Assembly (NCBI GenBank): GCA_020725175.1
Contig: DYFM01000002.1
Span: forward strand, 36,880 to 100,879
Source of the DNA: Candidatus Paceibacter sp.
GTDB lineage: Bacteria; Patescibacteriota; Patescibacteriia; Magasanikbacterales; UBA922
Direction: 5' to 3'
DNA length: 64,000 nucleotides
The stretch's first letter is position 1, and each line of letters opens with the position of its first letter. A program made the position numbers and the translations under genes. The notes beneath the pieces are model-generated. The model saw nothing but the letters and a program-made list of their open reading frames with translations, had not been told where the DNA came from and did no database searches. Positions 9,509 through 50,923 of the stretch are shown here, piece after piece.

Positions 9509-9635
9509 TCTCCACCCAAGGCAGCCTGTCCGCCTCGGGTGGAGATCAGCCTCCAGCTGACAATAAATAAAATAAATCCATCCTAAGGATAAGATGTGCA
9601 TTCTCCGACCCAGACGGATCCGCCCTGGGTGGAGA
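9509..9635. repeat. two related hairpin-forming ~37 bp segments (TCTCCACCC...GGGTGGAGA) immediately 3' of tRNA-Arg
   Basis: 9509-9546 and 9602-9635 share about 70% identity; each is an inverted repeat with a 9 bp stem. Confidence 0.4.
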
Positions 9636-9740
9636 TTCGTGCTGAGGCCACGCCACCTGATGGTGGAAATTCCAAATTGTAAGATACAATTTCCAAACTA
9701 GTGAGTTTTGCGACTTCCACACTTTTTTACTAAATCCCAC

Positions 9741-10748
9741 GTTTCACGTGAAACAAATATGAAGCGACTTGTATTAGCAACAAAAAATCCAGCGAAGGTA
9801 CGTTGATATAAGGCGTTGTTGAGAGGTGTGCCTGGATTGAATTTACTTTCATTGGCAGATTTTCCTACTACTCCGCCTGTCGAGGAGCCATTTATGACCG
9901 CTGAGGAAAACGCGTGACACAAGGCCAAGGAATACAGTCGTTTGCTTAACGAGGATGTCCTTACAATTGATGAAGCTTTGTCTGTTGATTTTCTTTCCGA
10001 TGAAGAGCAGCCTGGTGTACATGTAAGGAGAGTCGATCGGTCGAGCGAAGCGACAGATCAAGAAATCTATAATTACTGGAAGGGAAAAGTTGCTCAGGCC
10101 GGCAGAGAATGTGCAGGCTACTTTAGACAAGCACTCTGTATTTGCACAGTAAGTGGGATTCTCTTTGAGAAAACTACTGATAGACATTTCTTTTTTGCCA
10201 ACCCACCCTCCTTTCACTATTCTCCCAGCTATCCTTTTTCTGTTTTTAGGTTTGATCCAGGAGCGCAGAAGACGTATTCTGAGTTTTCTGACGAGGAGAA
10301 GTATGAAGTAGATAGAAAAGATTTGCACTGCATCTACTCTTTGATTGAAGAATTTTTGAGAGCTAAGTAATTTTGTATACAATATTGTAGACAAATTCCT
10401 AGAAGTGGGAATTTTTTGTTTCATATGAAACATTTTTTTATTATAAAATGTAAATTTTACGGCTCAACTGTCCGTTAATGGCCAAACTAATACGTTTCAC
10501 GTGAAACATATATCGTTTAGTAACTTATCTGTTGATCATGTAGGGATATGAAATTGAGTATTGTTTCACGTGAAACATGTTTAGTGATTTGAGAAATTTA
10601 ATTATAGATACAGATGATAAATAGTTCAGTTGGTTAGCCGGTCATATATTTTCTAGCGAGCTATTAGTTAATTATACATCAAGTGACACATTAGTTGTGT
10701 GGGAGTCTAGAAAGGTTCTTCATAATGTTTCATGTGAAACAAGTAAAT
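9741..10748. promoter_or_regulatory. five copies of a 14 bp palindrome, GTTTCA(C/T)(G/A)TGAAAC, scattered around the rdgB remnant
   Basis: Perfect GTTTCACGTGAAAC at 9741, 10494 and 10563; variants GTTTCATATGAAAC at 10417 and GTTTCATGTGAAAC at 10735. The first lies 14 nt upstream of the rdgB ATG. Confidence 0.5.
9768..10370 (+). pseudogene. rdgB: dITP/XTP pyrophosphatase (RdgB/HAM1) homolog with two in-frame TGA codons and a degenerate active site
   Basis: 'MKRLVLATKNPAKVR*YKALL...LSLADFPTTPPVEEPFMTAEENA*HKAKE' aligns to the RdgB N-terminus (GNxGKxRE ... FxENA). The C-terminus 'FRFDPGAQKTYSEFSDEEKYEVDRKDLH' aligns to 'FGYDPIF..FAE(M/L)..EEKN.ISHRG.AL'. The catalytic 'ADDSGL' is degenerated to 'TIDEAL'. 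Confidence 0.6.
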
Positions 10749-10790
10749 TGGGATAACTCTGTGGATAAGTGGATAACTCTGGGGATAAAG
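10749..10790. promoter_or_regulatory. cluster of DnaA-box-like 9-mers
   Basis: GGGATAACT, TGTGGATAA (perfect TTATCCACA complement), GTGGATAAC and GGGGATAAA in tandem, followed by a 100 bp stretch that is more than 80% AT. Confidence 0.4.
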
Positions 10791-11363
10791 TAGTGTTGGT
10801 GTTGATAAGAAAGGAAGTGTTTGTAGAACAAGCTGATTAAAAACATTAATAAATTAAAAAAATACTTTAATTTGAATATATAATGCAGTCGTACAATATA
10901 TATAGAAATAGAAGTGTGTTGTTCAAAAAATATTCTTTACTACAATGTGTCATGGTGGTTCGTGGAGCTATTTTAGTTTTTAGTTTATTTTTAGTTATGG
11001 CGGGTAAGCAAGCGGATATGTACCACGGGAAACCATTATCTTTATGAATTTTATCTATTTTTTATGATGCTGACAGAGGCTTCTTGCTATCTATTCTTTT
11101 TTTAGAACTGACAAGACCAAGTACACTTGGGGGGTCTATATCGTAGATTGGGGTTGTATATCACTCTTATGCTTATTGTTTATATGGTATTGGCGAGTTT
11201 CTTTTCTGTCGCAAATAATTTTTAGTTCAAGGTAGAGACCGATTGGTTATGGAAATATACGTGTGGTACGTCCGTTATTCTTTTAATATCAGTTGTGCTG
11301 GGCGGGGTGTATCGTACTTGTGAGGCGAAAATCTGATCAGCTGCTTTCATCTTTAGTCTAGAA

Positions 11364-13127
11364 ATGGTATACTATGTTCGTTCATATTATTCTTCTATGT
11401 TGCTTGAAAAAGAATTAAAAACAATTGTGACTGATTACCTACATCTTTCCAGTAAAGACCTTTTAGGTTATGAGAAGCAAGCGAAGAAGATTAATAAACC
11501 ACTTGAACAATATTTACTTGATGAAAATATTGTTGGTGAAAATGATTTATATGCGGCTGCGGCAAAATTGTTTGAAGTGCCATTTGTTTCTTTGAAAGGA
11601 AAAGAGATTAAGAAAGACACATTGAATCTAGTGCCAGCTCCGATGGCACAGACACATCACTTGATTGCGTTTGACAGTAATAAAAATGAAGTATCATTGG
11701 CTCTCTTGGATCCGGAAGATATTGAGACCATTGAATTTATTCGTCGGAAAACTGGATTAAGTCCAAAAATTTTCTTAGCAACACCGAGTGATATCAAGAC
11801 TGCACTTCGTCGATATCATGCGGACCTGGAGCAAGATATTAATATTGTGCAAATTTCTGATACAGATGGAGAAGATGGTTCGCAGGATTTGAAAAAAGCA
11901 GCCGAAGAACTACCGGTCGTAAATATTGTAAACAGTATTGTTGAACATGCGGTCTATGAAGACGCGAGTGATATTCATATTGAACCAACTGAAACAGAAG
12001 TAGTGGTACGTTACCGTATTGATGGAGAACTCCACCCGGTGATGTCACTTCCAAAAGCTGTCCAAAGTGGTATAGTGGCGCGTATCAAAGTATTGTCAAA
12101 CTTGAAAATTGATGAACACATGGTACCGCAGGATGGGCGATTTAAAATACAGGTACAGGAAGAAAAGTATGCCTTTCGTGTTTCCATTATTCCGGTGTAT
12201 GACGGAGAAAAGATTGTGATGCGTTTGCTGAACGAAGGACAGAAACCACTCACACTTGATCAGTTGGGATTTTTACCAAGTGTGCAGGAAATTATCAATC
12301 GCTCCATTAGTAAACCGCACGGTATGGTGATTGTAACCGGGCCAACCGGATCCGGTAAAACCACGACGTTGTACTCAATGCTCGGAATGCTCAATCAACC
12401 AGATGTCAACATTTCGACCGCCGAAGATCCGGTGGAATATCATGTAAAGGGAGTAAACCAGAGCCAAATGAATCCAAAGGTTGGGTTTACGTTTGCGGCA
12501 GCACTTCGATCATTCCTTCGTCAGGATCCGGATATTATTATGGTAGGAGAAATACGTGACCAAGAAACCGCCGAGATTGCTATTCATGCGGCGATGACCG
12601 GTCACTTGGTATTGTCTACCCTTCATACCAATGATGCGCCAACGACAATTCCACGTTTGCTTGATATGGACATTCCACCGTTTTTGGTGGCGTTTACGAT
12701 GAATGTGATTATTGCCCAACGTTTGGTGCGACGGATTTGTCAGTATTGCAAAAAGGAATATCATTTGGAAAAAGACGCGATCAAAGAATTGGAACGGTTA
12801 TTTAACGTCGATAAATTGACGAAGTTGTTTCTTTCACAAAAGCTGGATTTGAAAAAAGAGGAAAAGACATTGCAGTCGATGACTTTTTACCGAGGTGAAG
12901 GTTGTGGGCGTTGCAATAACTCTGGATATAAAGGACGGGTGGGTATTTATGAGGCACTGGAGATGGATAAAAAATTGATAGAAATGGTAAACGCTCGTGG
13001 GACTGCGGAACAAATCAAAGACTATGCCGTAGCGCAAGGAATGGTCACGATCATGGAAGATGGGCTTATTAAGGCGAAGCAGGGAGTGACGACGATTGAA
13101 GAGGTATTGAGGGCGACACGAGAGTGA
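11364..13127 (+). CDS. pilB: type IV pilus assembly ATPase PilB (GspE family)
   Basis: GSPII_E N-terminal domain, Walker A 'VTGPTGSGKTTTLYS', Asp/His boxes, C-terminal tetracysteine motif 'CQYC...CGRC'. Confidence 0.9.
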   Translation: MVYYVRSYYSSMLLEKELKTIVTDYLHLSSKDLLGYEKQAKKINKPLEQYLLDENIVGENDLYAAAAKLFEVPFVSLKGKEIKKDTLNLVPAPMAQTHHLIAFDSNKNEVSLALLDPEDIETIEFIRRKTGLSPKIFLATPSDIKTALRRYHADLEQDINIVQISDTDGEDGSQDLKKAAEELPVVNIVNSIVEHAVYEDASDIHIEPTETEVVVRYRIDGELHPVMSLPKAVQSGIVARIKVLSNLKIDEHMVPQDGRFKIQVQEEKYAFRVSIIPVYDGEKIVMRLLNEGQKPLTLDQLGFLPSVQEIINRSISKPHGMVIVTGPTGSGKTTTLYSMLGMLNQPDVNISTAEDPVEYHVKGVNQSQMNPKVGFTFAAALRSFLRQDPDIIMVGEIRDQETAEIAIHAAMTGHLVLSTLHTNDAPTTIPRLLDMDIPPFLVAFTMNVIIAQRLVRRICQYCKKEYHLEKDAIKELERLFNVDKLTKLFLSQKLDLKKEEKTLQSMTFYRGEGCGRCNNSGYKGRVGIYEALEMDKKLIEMVNARGTAEQIKDYAVAQGMVTIMEDGLIKAKQGVTTIEEVLRATRE

Positions 13128-36508: not shown

Positions 36509-37620
36509 CATCTTTTTTAAAAATTAAAATAATAATAATAGTATTGCTTAGTATATTTTTTCTTTCTAGTGATACTGTTTTTACTATTCAAACATGTTGT
36601 GTTTACGATGATGGTAATGACATGGTGGGAGGGTATGTTGGTCAATCACCTTGTCAACAGGTGGGTGGTTTCTCTGTGGTGGAAACAGACGACTCTGATA
36701 TATGTAACGAGGCATTAAGTTATAATGGAAAGAACAAGAGTTTTATGCTTGAGTGGGCAAATACACTTGTAGATTATGTTAAAGAAAAAAAAATATATGA
36801 ACAAGCGGTAACTAGTATTGCGAACAATCACTGCTGTGTTCCTAAATATGCTTATAAAGATCAGTTGGGTTGTGCCCCCCCCAAAAAATTTGAGGATAAG
36901 CCAAAAAAAGATTTTTTTACCATGCTATGGACTGTCGCACAAAAAGAACCAACCGATCCAAATAATATCACAGTCACAGACAAAACACTGTTGAGTGATT
37001 TAAACATTTTCACTAATAAATCATATATAGATAACTCTGATCTTGTTTCATGTGATTCAGGTAGTTACGCGCTTTTTCCTATTAGCTGTGGAAGTAATTC
37101 ATATATTGATAAAAAAGCCATTGATCATCCGGCCGGAGAAGGACCTCTTCAAGTTCCTCTTCAGCAATATTGTCAAGCAATAAAAGAATTTTACTGTTCG
37201 TGTGCGGATGATTTTAGTGAATGTTCAAATACAAAGTTTACTAATATTGACATATGCCTAAAAAATCAAGTTGGAGGAGTCAATAAGAAATGTGTACCTG
37301 TAGACCAACAAACAACTTGTGAAAGTTTGGTTATCATAAAGTATGAGGGGGTTAAGTTTTCTTTACCTGATACAAAAAAATTAGATCATATAGGTATTAG
37401 TATTCAGGAGTTTATTGGTCGTGTTGTATATACTGCTATGGGTGTTGTAGGAAGTATTGCGCTGGTCATGATGATATATGGTGGGGCACTATGGATGACC
37501 GCTGCTGGTAATTCTGAGAAAGACGCAAGAGCATTGAAGATAATGTTTTGGGCGGGGCTAGGGGTAGTTATAATATTGAGTAGTTATGCAGTTGTTACAT
37601 TTGTTTTTAATGCATTGTAA
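36505..37620 (+). CDS. secreted Cys-rich protein with C-terminal TrbC/VirB2-like pilin domain (array member 1)
   Basis: Signal peptide, about 300 aa ectodomain with about 20 Cys, then 'IALVMMIYGGALWMTAAGNSEKDARALKIMFWAGLGVVIILSSYAV'. Confidence 0.65.
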   Translation: MTSFLKIKIIIIVLLSIFFLSSDTVFTIQTCCVYDDGNDMVGGYVGQSPCQQVGGFSVVETDDSDICNEALSYNGKNKSFMLEWANTLVDYVKEKKIYEQAVTSIANNHCCVPKYAYKDQLGCAPPKKFEDKPKKDFFTMLWTVAQKEPTDPNNITVTDKTLLSDLNIFTNKSYIDNSDLVSCDSGSYALFPISCGSNSYIDKKAIDHPAGEGPLQVPLQQYCQAIKEFYCSCADDFSECSNTKFTNIDICLKNQVGGVNKKCVPVDQQTTCESLVIIKYEGVKFSLPDTKKLDHIGISIQEFIGRVVYTAMGVVGSIALVMMIYGGALWMTAAGNSEKDARALKIMFWAGLGVVIILSSYAVVTFVFNAL

Positions 37621-48426: not shown

Positions 48427-48517
48427 AGGGAAATAATTTCTGCCTACAGTATACGGTATTTTGTTAAAAAAAGAAAGAAAACAAGCTCTGTTTTCTTTCT
48501 CACGAAATCCATACCGG

Positions 48518-48590
48518 GGTGGCCAACGGGAATTGAACCCGTACTCTCGGTACCACAAACCGATGTGATAACCATTTCACCATGGCCACC
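48518..48590 (-). tRNA. tRNA-His (anticodon GUG) with encoded G-1
   Basis: Hand fold: G-1, acceptor GTGGCCA/TGGCCAC, D stem GTGA/TCAC, anticodon loop TTGTGGT, T-arm ACGGG-TTCAATT-CCCGT, discriminator C. Confidence 0.8.
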
Positions 48591-49654: not shown

Positions 49655-50698
49655 TCAATTATTTCCACGCTTTTTTCCATGAAACTTCTTGTGAATATTT
49701 CGTAATTCTCGATCAGTAATGTGGGTATAGATTTGAGTGGTGGTTATCGATGAATGACCGAGCATCGTCTGAACACTGCGGATATCAGCGCCGTTTTGTA
49801 GTAAGTCGGTTGCAAAGGAATGGCGAAGGGTGTGAGGGGTTACCGGCTTGGTAATGCCAGCTGCTTTGGCGTACTTTTGGACGATTCGCTGTATGGTGCG
49901 AGTAGTCAGAGGTTCGTCACCCTCAGAAGGCAATCCCCCGGCCACCACTTTTTTAAATTTTTTAGATGTTTTATCAGTTTTATCCGTTTTAGACGTTGTA
50001 TGTGTTTTCTTACTCGCTCCCACTTTCCCATGCCCGATAAACAAATATGGATTGATATCATGGCGCAGATCTAAATATTTCTTCAACCAATATTTCGATT
50101 GTTCTGAGATAAACACTACTCGAGATTTACGCCCTTTTCCGGTGACGGTGAATTCTTCTTCTTTTAGATTAATATGGTCTTTTTTCAATCCGCTGAGTTC
50201 GGAAACACGTAGACCAGTGGAAAATAGTAATTCGAGAATGGCTTTGTCACGGTATTTCATGAGAACGTCCTCTGGTGTTTCAGCATCCTGGTTTACGACA
50301 GTAGGAGCTTCCAGAAGACGCGCGACTTCTTCGGGGGTAAGAAAGTGCACTTCTCGGTCCGGCATTTTCATAAGTTCTATCTTTTCCGGAGCGAGTGTTT
50401 TGATATCTCTTTTGGCGAGATACTTGAGAAACGAGCGGAGGGCGATCAAGTGGTAGTTTTGAGTATTTTTTTTGAGGGGGATATTGTGAACATCGACCAA
50501 ACGGTTGAGCCACAGGCGATACTTGCGCACATCTTCAGCGGTGATATCTTCCGGCTTTTTCTTGTTTCCAAACCAATCAAGAAATCGTTTCAAATAAAAA
50601 TCATAGTTTCGCAGTGTCATGTTGCTCCGATTGCGCTCGATTTCGAGGTGTTCGAGAAACTCGGTGAGGTAGGTTTGAAGGGGTTTTGTGGGCATAGG
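49655..50698 (-). CDS. tyrosine site-specific recombinase (XerC/XerD/integrase family) with a Lys/Thr-rich insertion
   Basis: Core-binding N-domain and catalytic 'HTLRHSFATDLLQNGADIRSVQTMLGHSSITTTQIYTH' (R..H..R..Y). A roughly 45-aa low-complexity insert 'GASKKTHTTSKTDKTDKTSKKFKK' is present. The true start is 'MPTKPL'. Confidence 0.75.
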   Translation of the reverse strand, partial: PMPTKPLQTYLTEFLEHLEIERNRSNMTLRNYDFYLKRFLDWFGNKKKPEDITAEDVRKYRLWLNRLVDVHNIPLKKNTQNYHLIALRSFLKYLAKRDIKTLAPEKIELMKMPDREVHFLTPEEVARLLEAPTVVNQDAETPEDVLMKYRDKAILELLFSTGLRVSELSGLKKDHINLKEEEFTVTGKGRKSRVVFISEQSKYWLKKYLDLRHDINPYLFIGHGKVGASKKTHTTSKTDKTDKTSKKFKKVVAGGLPSEGDEPLTTRTIQRIVQKYAKAAGITKPVTPHTLRHSFATDLLQNGADIRSVQTMLGHSSITTTQIYTHITDRELRNIHKKFHGKKRGNN

Positions 50699-50923
50699 GT
50701 GGTGGAGGATTACAAAGCTTTTGAGGCTTATGACGCTTGTAAGGCAAATAATTGTTTGTGAATTGTTTGCAAAGCTATCCTTTGTACATCGCGTGGTTGT
50801 CTTTAGCCATAGTGCCTTGTAAGCCTTGTTGGCTTTGTAGGCATTGCAAGCCTTTATATTGTACGACATATTTCAAAAAAGCGCAAATGGCAGAGAATAG
50901 CTCAATAAAGCTAAAAAAGAGCA

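What the first reader, a model, noticed from the sequence alone, without database searches (positions are those of the whole stretch)
9768..10370. rdgB/HAM1 homolog with two in-frame TGA codons and a degenerate active site, embedded in a low-coding 1.9 kb region
The translated sequence tracks RdgB over its whole length (N-terminal GNxGKxRE-like, FxENA, C-terminal FGYDP-like). Both interruptions are TGA, at positions where RdgB has E and I/L. The catalytic ADDSGL is replaced by TIDEAL. This may be a recently inactivated gene, a catalytically dead derivative, or translationally recoded (UGA read through). The surrounding 9500-11360 region, between tRNA-Arg and pilB, lacks other convincing ORFs. 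This fits a decaying integrated element at a tRNA gene.
Basis: partly seen in the sequence, partly recalled or inferred. Interest (0 to 1): 0.55.

Follow-up and report, generated by a model that had tools for sequence, protein, structure and literature searches.

The report
Recently broken Ham1-like pyrophosphatase gene
An accessory nucleotide-cleaning (Ham1/RdgB-like) gene in an uncultured Magasanikbacteria genome has been knocked out by two stop codons; this is an ordinary young pseudogene lying inside a cluster of chromosome-partition (parS) sites, not a case of unusual decoding.

Summary
Window 9759-10370 (+) is a 203-codon Ham1-family frame (Pfam PF01725, E=4e-17). It has two in-frame TGAs, at 9804-9806 and 9915-9917.

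The best reading is a recently inactivated accessory gene:
- Both TGAs are identical in three assemblies of this organism.
- TGA ends 16 of 59 ORFs in the window, and no other conserved frame is split by TGA. An alternative genetic code is therefore excluded.
- An intact 204-aa homologue (50% identity) sits at the same tRNA-Arg/parS locus in a relative.
- A relative with 95%-identical RmuC carries unrelated non-coding DNA in that slot.

The "degenerate active site" is wrong. The xDEAL motif belongs to a large, intact, divergent Ham1 subfamily. Its invariant residues (E43, N51, K55, D71) are all kept here, and only invariant G157 is lost.

The "low-coding 1.9 kb" region is mostly cis-acting DNA and relics:
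- five parS palindromes;
- a conserved block of four DnaA boxes;
- a previously unnoticed pseudo-tRNA-Arg (9549-9651) split by a 30-nt hairpin insertion.

No integrase or att repeat supports an integrated element. GC3 skew shows the locus is not the replication origin. The finding is ordinary and of low interest.

The parts
9759..10370 (+). Pseudogene of a divergent Ham1/ITPase-family NTP pyrophosphatase: 203 codons plus TAA, no frameshifts.
   Evidence: Pfam PF01725 E=4.3e-17. 50% identity over the full length to the intact P0001. Retains 28 of 30 subfamily-conserved columns.
9804..9806 (+). First in-frame TGA (codon 16).
   Evidence: Identical in the NCBI MAG, the JGI contig and the Logan SRR5011275 contig. 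Subfamily members have R (26/69) or Q (15/69) at this position.
9915..9917 (+). Second in-frame TGA (codon 53).
   Evidence: Subfamily members most often have R here (24/69). CGA is the commonest Arg codon in the window.
9849..10433 (-). Antisense 194-aa ORF that gene callers annotated in place of the broken sense frame; judged spurious.
   Evidence: Called as a 191-aa gene in L025/L026/L038. No Pfam hit. No antisense ORF in the intact homologue's locus L001.
9429..9501 (+). Functional tRNA-Arg(CCT).
   Evidence: ARAGORN; Rfam tRNA 66.7 bits.
9508..9546 (+). Very stable hairpin directly after the tRNA. A diverged copy of it forms the insertion in the pseudo-tRNA.
   Evidence: dG -25.4 kcal/mol, z = -5.3. 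Repeat families D6, I12, I13.
9549..9651 (+). Pseudo-tRNA-Arg(CCT) of the type carried by relatives L040 and L041. The D-loop GG is mutated to AA, and a 30-nt hairpin insertion (9604-9633) splits the T arm.
   Evidence: Local alignment score 76 against a shuffle mean of 28 and maximum of 40. Not called by ARAGORN.
9740..9755 (.). parS-like palindrome 1 (CGTTTCACGTGAAACA), 3 bp upstream of the pseudogene's ATG.
   Evidence: Conserved at the same place in L040.
10417..10432 (.). parS-like palindrome 2 (2 mismatches).
   Evidence: Lies in an 88%-conserved block shared with L040.
10493..10508 (.). parS-like palindrome 3 (1 mismatch).
10562..10577 (.). parS palindrome 4, a perfect TGTTTCACGTGAAACA.
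   Evidence: Consensus as given in PMC7022226.
10726..10741 (.). parS-like palindrome 5 (1 mismatch).
   Evidence: Conserved in L040.
10748..10808 (-). Tandem cluster of DnaA-box-like 9-mers (TTATCCACA type): four with at most 1 mismatch plus one with 2 mismatches, all in one orientation. An AT-rich stretch follows at about 10835-10885.
   Evidence: The block is 84% identical in L040 while the flanks do not align.
10888..10909 (-). Conserved TATTGTACGAC motif. It forms an inverted repeat with 9382-9403, upstream of the tRNA.
   Evidence: I1; also present next to the parS block in L001, L040 and L041.

Best explanation
Window 9759-10370 is a young pseudogene. It descends from a stand-alone gene of about 204 aa belonging to a divergent, uncharacterised subfamily of the Ham1/RdgB/ITPase fold. 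That subfamily is probably a house-cleaning nucleoside-triphosphate pyrophosphatase. In this Candidatus Magasanikbacteria lineage the gene was an accessory gene sitting between the tRNA-Arg(CCT) gene and a cluster of parS sites. Two nonsense mutations ended translation at codons 16 and 53. The most parsimonious path is CGA(Arg) to TGA, a C-to-T transition, at both sites. The only products possible are a 15-residue peptide or, by chance re-initiation at TTG 9942, a 142-residue C-terminal fragment lacking the phosphate- and metal-binding residues K13, E43, N51 and K55. No active enzyme is therefore made. The event is recent on the scale of sequence decay. Shown directly: the homology, the stops, their reproducibility, ordinary use of TGA as a stop, the intact syntenic homologue, and absence of the gene in a close relative. 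Inferred: the CGA ancestry, loss of function, and the enzymatic role of the subfamily.
For: - Homology: Pfam Ham1 E=4.3e-17. The score of 63 bits is as good as for intact subfamily members, which score 50-69 bits.
- Reproducibility of the stops: the window is identical to the NCBI MAG GCA_020724605.1, to JGI 3300029893 and to a Logan assembly of SRR5011275, a contig seen in 2 samples.
- TGA is a normal stop: 16 of 59 ORFs end in TGA, including pilB. The only other frame with two long TGA-separated segments (5818-6495, minus strand) is rpsT plus junk.
- No recoding signal: folding z-scores after the two UGAs are -0.03 and -0.54, and Rfam finds nothing apart from the tRNA.
- Intact relative: P0001 is 204 aa, 50% identical, and lies in the same order tRNA-Arg(CCT), gene, parS, parS.
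- The subfamily is real and under selection: 983 representative clusters at E<1e-3. E43, N51, K55, D71, G157 and P159 are invariant in 69 members. The P0001 model has pLDDT 96 and a Ham1 fold with TM 0.7-0.8 to 4bnq and 2q16.
- Early decay: the invariant G157 is Ser in the window and W122 is Phe, but there is no frameshift.
- Dispensability: L040 (RmuC 95% and PilB 90% identical) keeps the tRNA, parS and DnaA-box framework but has 425 bp of unrelated non-coding DNA where the gene should be. The gene is also absent from L041-L046.
- House-cleaning role: subfamily members occur fused to NUDIX (twice), to a DNA-alkylation-repair domain and to an AAA_33 kinase domain.
Against: - The three assemblies may derive from one study site or partly from the same reads, so they are not fully independent. 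Read-level polymorphism could not be examined.
- The window copy deviates at only 2 of 20 highly conserved columns. That is within the 0-3 range seen in intact members, so sequence decay alone cannot prove loss of function.
- No near-identical genome with an intact allele was found, so the ancestral codons (CGA) are inferred from family majorities only. The closest homologue has CGT and GAA at the two positions.
- Low-level UGA read-through cannot be excluded computationally.
Confidence: 0.85

Rival explanations
1. The gene is still expressed by translational read-through or programmed recoding of both UGA codons, giving a low level of full-length enzyme.
For: UGA is the leakiest stop codon, and the second one is followed by C (UGA-C), which by general knowledge is a weak termination context. 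The frame is otherwise intact and retains the catalytic residues.
Against: Two independent read-through events are needed, and the first UGA is followed by U. No stable structure follows either UGA (z = -0.03 and -0.54). Rfam gives no SECIS-like hit. Family residues at the two positions are R, Q, I or L, not Cys, Trp or Gly. Intact homologues use sense codons there. A close relative lacks the gene altogether.
Confidence: 0.05
2. The TGAs are sequencing or assembly artefacts, or a minority allele fixed in the consensus, and the real population carries an intact gene.
For: The source is a metagenome-assembled genome. The three assemblies could share reads.
Against: The sequence is identical over 1981 bp in assemblies made by three different pipelines and in a contig seen in 2 samples. 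Two independent substitution errors that both create TGA within 111 bp are improbable. No intact near-identical protein exists among 5.8 billion clustered proteins; the best hit is 50% identical. The copy also carries G157S at an invariant position.
Confidence: 0.06
3. The organism uses an alternative genetic code in which TGA is a sense codon, as in the related CPR lineages Gracilibacteria and Absconditabacteria (code 25).
For: The organism belongs to the CPR/Patescibacteria, a group that includes code-25 lineages (general knowledge).
Against: About 59 long ORFs with full-length Pfam domains are free of TGA, and 16 of them terminate at TGA. No other conserved frame is split by TGA. Family residues at the two positions are not Gly or Trp.
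Confidence: 0.01
4. The locus is the decaying remnant of a mobile element that integrated at tRNA-Arg and brought the Ham1-like gene as cargo.
For: A decayed second tRNA-Arg(CCT) lies 48 bp after the live one. The RmuC / tRNA-Arg / parS interval holds different genes in each relative, including a tyrosine recombinase in L043 and IS1595 transposases in L045. The gene is patchily distributed.
Against: There is no integrase or other mobile-element gene in 9300-11360. There is no direct repeat of the live tRNA's 3' end. The relic is a full-length tRNA of a different sequence type, not an att half-site. The pseudogene lies between parS sites whose positions are conserved in L040, and an intact homologue occupies the same position in L001.
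Confidence: 0.15

Closest known systems
RdgB / Ham1 / ITPA non-canonical purine NTP pyrophosphatases (Pfam PF01725; PDB 1k7k, 2q16, 4bnq, 2j4e)
   Same: Same fold over the whole length: the model of the intact homologue has TM 0.7-0.8. The N-terminal half is homologous and keeps the T-x-N-x-x-K phosphate loop, E43, the ENA-x-x-KA motif and the Asp aligned with RdgB D69.
   Different: It is not an RdgB orthologue: TIGR00042 scores 36.8 bits against a cut-off of 145, and all NCBIfam equivalogs fall far below their cut-offs. DDSGL is replaced by xDEAL. The C-terminal FGYDP and SHRG motifs are replaced by PGYP(M/L)S, and there is a subfamily-specific QPGVHxRR loop. The window copy is also interrupted by two stop codons.
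Uncharacterised 'xDEAL / QPGVHxRR' Ham1-like subfamily (e.g. P0001 and P0125-P0146; members in Patescibacteria, Saccharibacteria and other MAGs)
   Same: The window frame shares all the hallmark motifs and the length. The closest member is 50% identical and syntenic.
   Different: All 69 aligned members are intact. The window copy has two TGAs, and Ser at the invariant G157.
Chromosomal parS centromere sites bound by ParB/Spo0J (consensus TGTTNCACGTGAAACA)
   Same: Five sites match the 16-bp palindrome with 0-2 mismatches within 1 kb. The consensus is as listed in PMC7022226. Such sites are also found next to tRNA-Arg in relatives.
   Different: Binding is untested and no parB was identified in the window. 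The sites bracket a pseudogene, and GC3 skew shows no origin at this spot.
KomBC (Kongming anti-phage system) HAM1-like dITP-sensing subunit (PDB 9v0g, 8zsg, 9xvc)
   Same: Shares the Ham1 fold, with Foldseek E about 1e-8 to 1e-6.
   Different: The match is weaker than to the housekeeping enzymes. PADLOC gives no hit for the subfamily. No SIR2 or deaminase partner genes lie nearby.

Membership tests
Ham1/ITPase superfamily (PF01725) | Profile match above Pfam's gathering threshold over most of the domain | tested here: met
   63 bits against 22.5, residues 4-185 of 203 on profile positions 1-174 of 186.
Ham1/ITPase superfamily (PF01725) | Ham1 alpha/beta fold | tested here: met
   Tested on the intact homologue P0001, not on the window copy: pLDDT 96, TM 0.7-0.8 to 4bnq, 2q16 and 1k7k.
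Ham1/ITPase superfamily (PF01725) | Conserved phosphate- and metal-binding residues (Lys of the N-terminal loop, Glu about 41, Lys about 53, Asp about 69 in RdgB numbering) | tested here: met
   K13, E43, K55 and D71 are present in the window frame and are 99-100% conserved in 69 subfamily members.
Ham1/ITPase superfamily (PF01725) | Uninterrupted reading frame able to give a full-length protein | tested here: not met
   TGA at codons 16 and 53.
RdgB orthologue (NCBIfam TIGR00042 and PRK equivalogs) | Score above the equivalog cut-off; C-terminal FGYDP and SHRG motifs | tested here: not met
   36.8 bits against a cut-off of 145.35; the best equivalog scores 58.7 against 234. Intact subfamily members fail in the same way. 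The motifs are replaced by PGYPxS.
Pseudogene (recent, by nonsense mutation) | Premature stops that are real, in a genome where the codon is a genuine stop, with intact homologues elsewhere | tested here: met
   reproducible stops; TGA is a stop; intact homologues.
Pseudogene (recent, by nonsense mutation) | No protein product | not testable with these tools
   Needs proteomics, ribosome profiling or a reporter assay.
Programmed UGA recoding (selenocysteine or read-through) | Stimulatory RNA element after the UGA; Cys or conserved sense codon in homologues; conservation of the UGA in relatives | tested here: not met
   No structure and no Rfam hit. Homologues have R, Q, I, L or E. The nearest homologue has sense codons.
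Chromosomal parS sites | 16-bp palindrome matching tGTTNCACGTGAAACa, significantly enriched | tested here: met
   Five sites in 9740-10741 with at most 2 mismatches, against 0.59 expected (at up to 3 mismatches) in the whole 64 kb. Consensus from PMC7022226.
Chromosomal parS sites | Binding by the cognate ParB | not testable with these tools
   Needs ChIP-seq or EMSA. No parB was found among the window ORFs scanned.
oriC (chromosomal replication origin) | DnaA-box cluster next to an AT-rich unwinding region | tested here: met
   Four or five tandem boxes at 10748-10808 followed by an AT-rich stretch at about 10835-10885. The boxes are conserved in L040.
oriC (chromosomal replication origin) | Inversion of strand compositional skew at the site | tested here: not met
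   GC3 skew of the + strand is positive for genes of both orientations on both sides of the locus: upstream 0.19 and 0.36, downstream 0.21 and 0.25. Cumulative GC skew rises monotonically.
tRNA-targeting integrated element | Integrase gene plus a direct repeat of the tRNA 3' end bounding the insert | tested here: not met
   No integrase in 9300-11360. No repeat of the last 15-30 nt of the tRNA anywhere in the window. The adjacent relic is a full-length tRNA of another sequence type.

The most novel reading that the evidence does not exclude
The tRNA-Arg / parS x5 / DnaA-box block may be the chromosomal centromere of this Magasanikbacteria clade and a ParB-coated zone. On this reading, genes caught inside it are transcriptionally silenced and therefore decay or are replaced. 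The Ham1-like gene fits that picture because parS1 sits 3 bp upstream of its ATG. The locus would then be a natural example of centromere-driven gene loss in an ultra-small CPR genome. A separate possibility is that the double UGA is tolerated because low-level read-through supplies enough of a potentially toxic enzyme.
Probability: 0.07. Interest if true: 0.5.

Novelty: new member of a known kind. Interest (0 to 1): 0.2.

Why it matters
The practical value is mainly for annotation. The public MAG annotates a spurious antisense 'hypothetical protein' here instead of a Ham1-family pseudogene, and it misses a pseudo-tRNA and a parS/DnaA-box cluster. It also shows that the xDEAL/QPGVHxRR proteins form a distinct, widespread and uncharacterised Ham1 subfamily, about 1000 clusters at 50% identity, whose substrate is unknown. 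For genome biology, it is a small documented case of ongoing loss of an accessory gene in a streamlined CPR genome. It does not bear on genetic-code evolution.

Tried and rejected
- **oriC idea.** On seeing parS sites, tandem DnaA boxes, an AT-rich stretch and a switch in gene orientation, I suspected that 9.5-11.4 kb was the replication origin. GC3 skew by gene orientation shows no replichore switch. No dnaA, dnaN or parAB was found among the ORFs scanned. A BUS-type DnaA-trio run (TAG-AAC-AAG, read by eye from the sequence) lies 16 bp after the last box but is absent from the corresponding L040 sequence (pattern from PMC8287927). The idea is not supported.
- **Second TGA-split gene.** The frame 5818-6495 (minus strand) looked like a candidate but is rpsT preceded by non-coding sequence.
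- **Decayed remnant in L040.** There is no significant DNA or protein similarity: global alignment scores 2.0 against a shuffle mean of 3.2, and tblastn gives E=0.28. Deletion or replacement fits better than in-place decay.
- **Collection scans for closer relatives.** Scans of the genome and metagenome collections found only homologues at 39% identity or less. Neither collection holds this species' locus.
- **Look-ups by exact protein.** The 421-aa RmuC form and P0005 were not on record.
- **Synteny in a complete-genome relative.** In OZ246405.1 the RmuC-tRNA-Arg pairing is kept but there is no parS or Ham1-like gene within 10 kb.
- **Defence-system link.** A link suggested by the KomBC fold hits has no PADLOC support.
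- **Promoter scan.** No convincing promoter lies upstream of the pseudogene's ATG, and hits are not above shuffle level.

Full report
**Observation**

Window 9759-10370 on the + strand reads as 203 codons ending in TAA. There are two in-frame TGA codons, at 9804-9806 (codon 16) and 9915-9917 (codon 53), and no frameshift.

The conceptual protein matches Pfam Ham1p_like at E=4.3e-17. It scores 63 bits against a gathering threshold of 22.5 and covers residues 4-185. It aligns end to end with S. aureus Ham1 (4bnq, E=2e-7) and over its N-terminal half with E. coli RdgB. It stays far below every NCBIfam RdgB equivalog cut-off, for example TIGR00042 at 36.8 against 145 bits. The flanking tRNA-Arg(CCT) at 9429-9501 and pilB at 11364-13127 are confirmed.

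**Source organism and reproducibility**

An exact-protein look-up of PilB places the window on contig DYGQ01000002.1 of the MAG GCA_020724605.1. It also lies on a 131-kb contig of JGI metagenome 3300029893. RmuC homologues identify the organism as Candidatus Magasanikbacteria, in the Patescibacteria/CPR.

Both of those assemblies are base-for-base identical to the window across the gene. A third, a Logan assembly of SRR5011275 whose contig was seen in two samples, is identical across the whole 9420-11400 interval. Random assembly or sequencing error is therefore unlikely. The data sets may come from one site, and read-level data could not be examined.

**Genetic code**

When only TAA and TAG are treated as stops, none of the long conserved frames of the window acquires a second long TGA-separated coding segment. 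The one apparent exception (5818-6495, minus strand) is rpsT preceded by non-coding sequence. Of 59 ORFs, 32 end in TAA, 16 in TGA (pilB among them) and 11 in TAG. TGA is therefore an ordinary stop in this genome.

Neither UGA is followed by a stable RNA structure (z = -0.03 and -0.54). Rfam finds nothing but the tRNA in 9000-11600.

**The 'degenerate active site' is a subfamily signature**

A word-indexed search of 5.8 billion proteins gave one close relative, P0001. It is 204 aa, intact and 50% identical over the full length. It has VDEAL where the window has TIDEAL and RdgB has ADDSGL.

MAG loci labelled Gammaproteobacteria and Saccharibacteria encode intact proteins with SEDEAL or ATDNAL followed by DDEQPGVHVRR. 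An exhaustive phmmer search with P0001 found 983 representative clusters at E<1e-3 and 250 at E<1e-10.

In an alignment of 69 full-length members, E43, N51, K55, D71, G157 and P159 are invariant. N10, K13, Q84, P85, R91 and D100 are 99% conserved, G86 and R90 96%, and T8 91% (the 40-sequence alignment A5 agrees). D71 aligns with D69 of E. coli RdgB. An AlphaFold model of P0001 built on that alignment is confident (pLDDT 96, pTM 0.90). Its best structural matches are Ham1/RdgB/ITPA structures at TM 0.7-0.8.

Some subfamily members are fused to NUDIX (twice), to a DNA-alkylation-repair domain and to an AAA_33 kinase domain. That points to nucleotide-pool or DNA-damage housekeeping. PADLOC gives no defence-system assignment, even though the model also hits the Ham1-like KomBC chains more weakly. 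The motif differences from RdgB therefore reflect a distinct, selected subfamily rather than decay.

**State of the window copy**

The window copy keeps 28 of the 30 columns that are at least 70% conserved in the subfamily. The exceptions are G157 (100% Gly in the family, Ser here) and W122 (81% Trp, Phe here). At the 20 columns that are at least 80% conserved it deviates twice, which is inside the 0-3 range of intact members. Its Pfam score equals that of intact members.

At the two TGA positions the family most often has Arg, 26/69 and 24/69. CGA is the commonest Arg codon in the window, 184 of 756. Two CGA-to-TGA transitions are therefore the simplest history, though this is an inference. 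The nearest homologue has CGT and GAA at those positions. Inactivation is recent relative to the rate of sequence decay.

**Synteny and dispensability**

The 1.5-kb contig carrying P0001 begins inside a tRNA-Arg(CCT) of the same sequence type as the window's. It continues with the intact gene and then two parS sites.

A relative with 95%-identical RmuC and 90%-identical PilB (L040) has this order: tRNA-Arg(CCT), parS, 425 bp of ORF-free DNA with no detectable similarity to the gene, three parS sites, four DnaA boxes, an AT-rich stretch and pilB. More distant Magasanikbacteria keep RmuC next to tRNA-Arg(CCT). They carry different genes around it and no Ham1-like gene. The gene is thus an accessory gene at a variable locus: intact in one lineage, broken here, and absent in others.

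**What the 'low-coding 1.9 kb' contains**

- **parS sites.** Five matches to the chromosomal parS palindrome TGTTTCACGTGAAACA lie at 9740, 10417, 10493, 10562 (perfect) and 10726. The scan, which allowed up to 3 mismatches, expected 0.59 matches in the whole 64 kb, and the only other match, at 37044, has 3 mismatches. The consensus is as given in PMC7022226. parS1 ends 3 bp before the pseudogene's ATG.
- **DnaA boxes.** Four DnaA-box 9-mers with at most 1 mismatch, plus one with 2 mismatches, all in one orientation, lie at 10748-10808 and are followed by an AT-rich stretch. This block together with parS5 is 84% identical in L040, while the surrounding sequence cannot be aligned.
- **Pseudo-tRNA.** Window 9549-9651 is a full-length relic of a second tRNA-Arg(CCT), of the sequence type that L040 and L041 use as their functional gene. 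Its alignment score is 76 against a shuffle maximum of 40. The D-loop GG is changed to AA, and a 30-nt hairpin (9604-9633) is inserted in the T arm. That hairpin is related to the very stable hairpin at 9508-9546, just after the live tRNA.
- **Conserved motif.** A TATTGTACGAC motif forms an inverted repeat (9382-9403 with 10888-10909). It recurs next to the parS block in L001, L040 and L041.
- **ORFs.** The 54-aa ORF at 10883-11047 and the 194-aa antisense ORF at 9849-10433, both called as genes in the public annotation, have no Pfam hit. The 54-aa ORF's sequence does not align with the corresponding stretch of L040, and no antisense ORF exists in L001, the locus of the intact homologue.

**Not the origin, and not a demonstrable integrated element**

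I tested whether the parS/DnaA-box block is oriC. The GC3 skew of the + strand is positive for genes of either orientation on both sides of the locus. Upstream it is 0.19 for minus-strand genes and 0.36 for plus-strand genes. Downstream it is 0.21 and 0.25. Cumulative GC skew rises monotonically through the window. There is therefore no replichore switch here, and no dnaA or parAB was seen among the ORFs scanned.

For the integrated-element idea, there is no integrase in the interval and no direct repeat of the tRNA 3' end. The tRNA relic is full-length rather than an att half-site. The duplicated and decayed tRNA and the variable gene content do show that this is a recombination-prone locus.

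**Verdict**

This is a young pseudogene of an accessory gene from a divergent Ham1-like subfamily, set among parS sites (confidence about 0.85). Read-through (0.05), artefact (0.06) and alternative code (0.01) are unlikely. It is a new, broken member of a known kind and of low general interest. The side findings may merit a note: the parS/DnaA-box block, the pseudo-tRNA with a hairpin insertion, and the uncharacterised xDEAL/QPGVHxRR Ham1 subfamily.

Noticed in passing
window 9549-9651: Pseudo-tRNA-Arg(CCT) immediately downstream of the functional tRNA-Arg. It matches the functional tRNA type of relatives L040 and L041, has D-loop GG changed to AA, and carries a 30-nt hairpin insertion (9604-9633) in the T arm. 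The live tRNA is of a different sequence type, shared with L001 and L045, which suggests the tRNA gene was replaced.
   Followed up: yes
window 9740-10741: Five chromosomal-type parS palindromes within 1 kb, one of them perfect at 10562. The scan (up to 3 mismatches) expected 0.59 in the whole 64 kb. parS sites also follow tRNA-Arg(CCT) in relatives L001, L040, L041 and L043.
   Followed up: yes
window 10748-10808 (AT-rich stretch about 10835-10885): Tandem same-orientation DnaA-box cluster followed by an AT-rich stretch. It is 84% conserved in L040 while the flanks are not alignable. GC3 skew argues that it is not oriC. It could be a DnaA-titration or regulatory site, but its function is unknown.
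   Followed up: partly
window 9393-9403 (+), 10888-10898 (-), 50857-50867 (+); L001 about 1295, L040 about 1174, L041 about 113: Conserved 11-mer TATTGTACGAC. Two copies form an inverted repeat bracketing the block from tRNA to DnaA boxes, and a third lies at the 5' end of the integrase gene 49655-50869. It could be a promoter -35 element (TTGTAC lies about 30 bp upstream of the tRNA) or a protein-binding site.
   Followed up: partly
window 9508-9546: Unusually stable hairpin (dG -25.4 kcal/mol, z = -5.3) directly after the tRNA-Arg, with no T-tract on the + strand. A diverged copy of it forms the insertion inside the pseudo-tRNA, so it may be a small mobile hairpin element or a processing signal.
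   Followed up: partly
window 9849-10433 (-) and 10883-11047 (+): Both ORFs are called as protein genes (191 aa and 54 aa) in the public annotations of this contig. Neither has a Pfam hit; the first has no counterpart in L001 and the second does not align with L040. The first is simply the antisense strand of the Ham1-like pseudogene.
   Followed up: yes
window 49655-50869 (-), next to tRNA-His 48516-48589 (-): A tyrosine recombinase (Phage_integrase plus SAM-like N-terminal domains, 404 aa) lies about 1 kb from tRNA-His, with an SPFH/Band 7 gene between them. This could be a real tRNA-associated integrated element or a Xer-type recombinase.
   Followed up: no
window 60001-61000: A sharp GC spike: 62.5% against about 41% elsewhere. 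It lies within or next to ORF 59682-60818 (-), which has no Pfam hit. It may be a low-complexity or repeat-rich protein, or foreign DNA.
   Followed up: no
L040 2374-3408; L041 936-4738; L043 3119-4784; L045 4804-9753: The interval around RmuC and tRNA-Arg(CCT) carries different cargo in each Magasanikbacteria relative: HTH_24 plus DUF4325; TrmB plus a 667-aa methyltransferase plus an unknown 209-aa protein; a tyrosine recombinase; IS1595 transposases plus dCMP deaminase. It is a hot spot for gene turnover.
   Followed up: partly
model of P0001 (homologue of window 9759-10370): The Ham1-like model also matches the HAM1-like chains of the KomBC (Kongming) anti-phage complex (PDB 9v0g, 8zsg, 9xvc; E 1e-8 to 1e-6). 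There is no PADLOC hit and no partner genes, so this is probably just the shared fold.
   Followed up: partly
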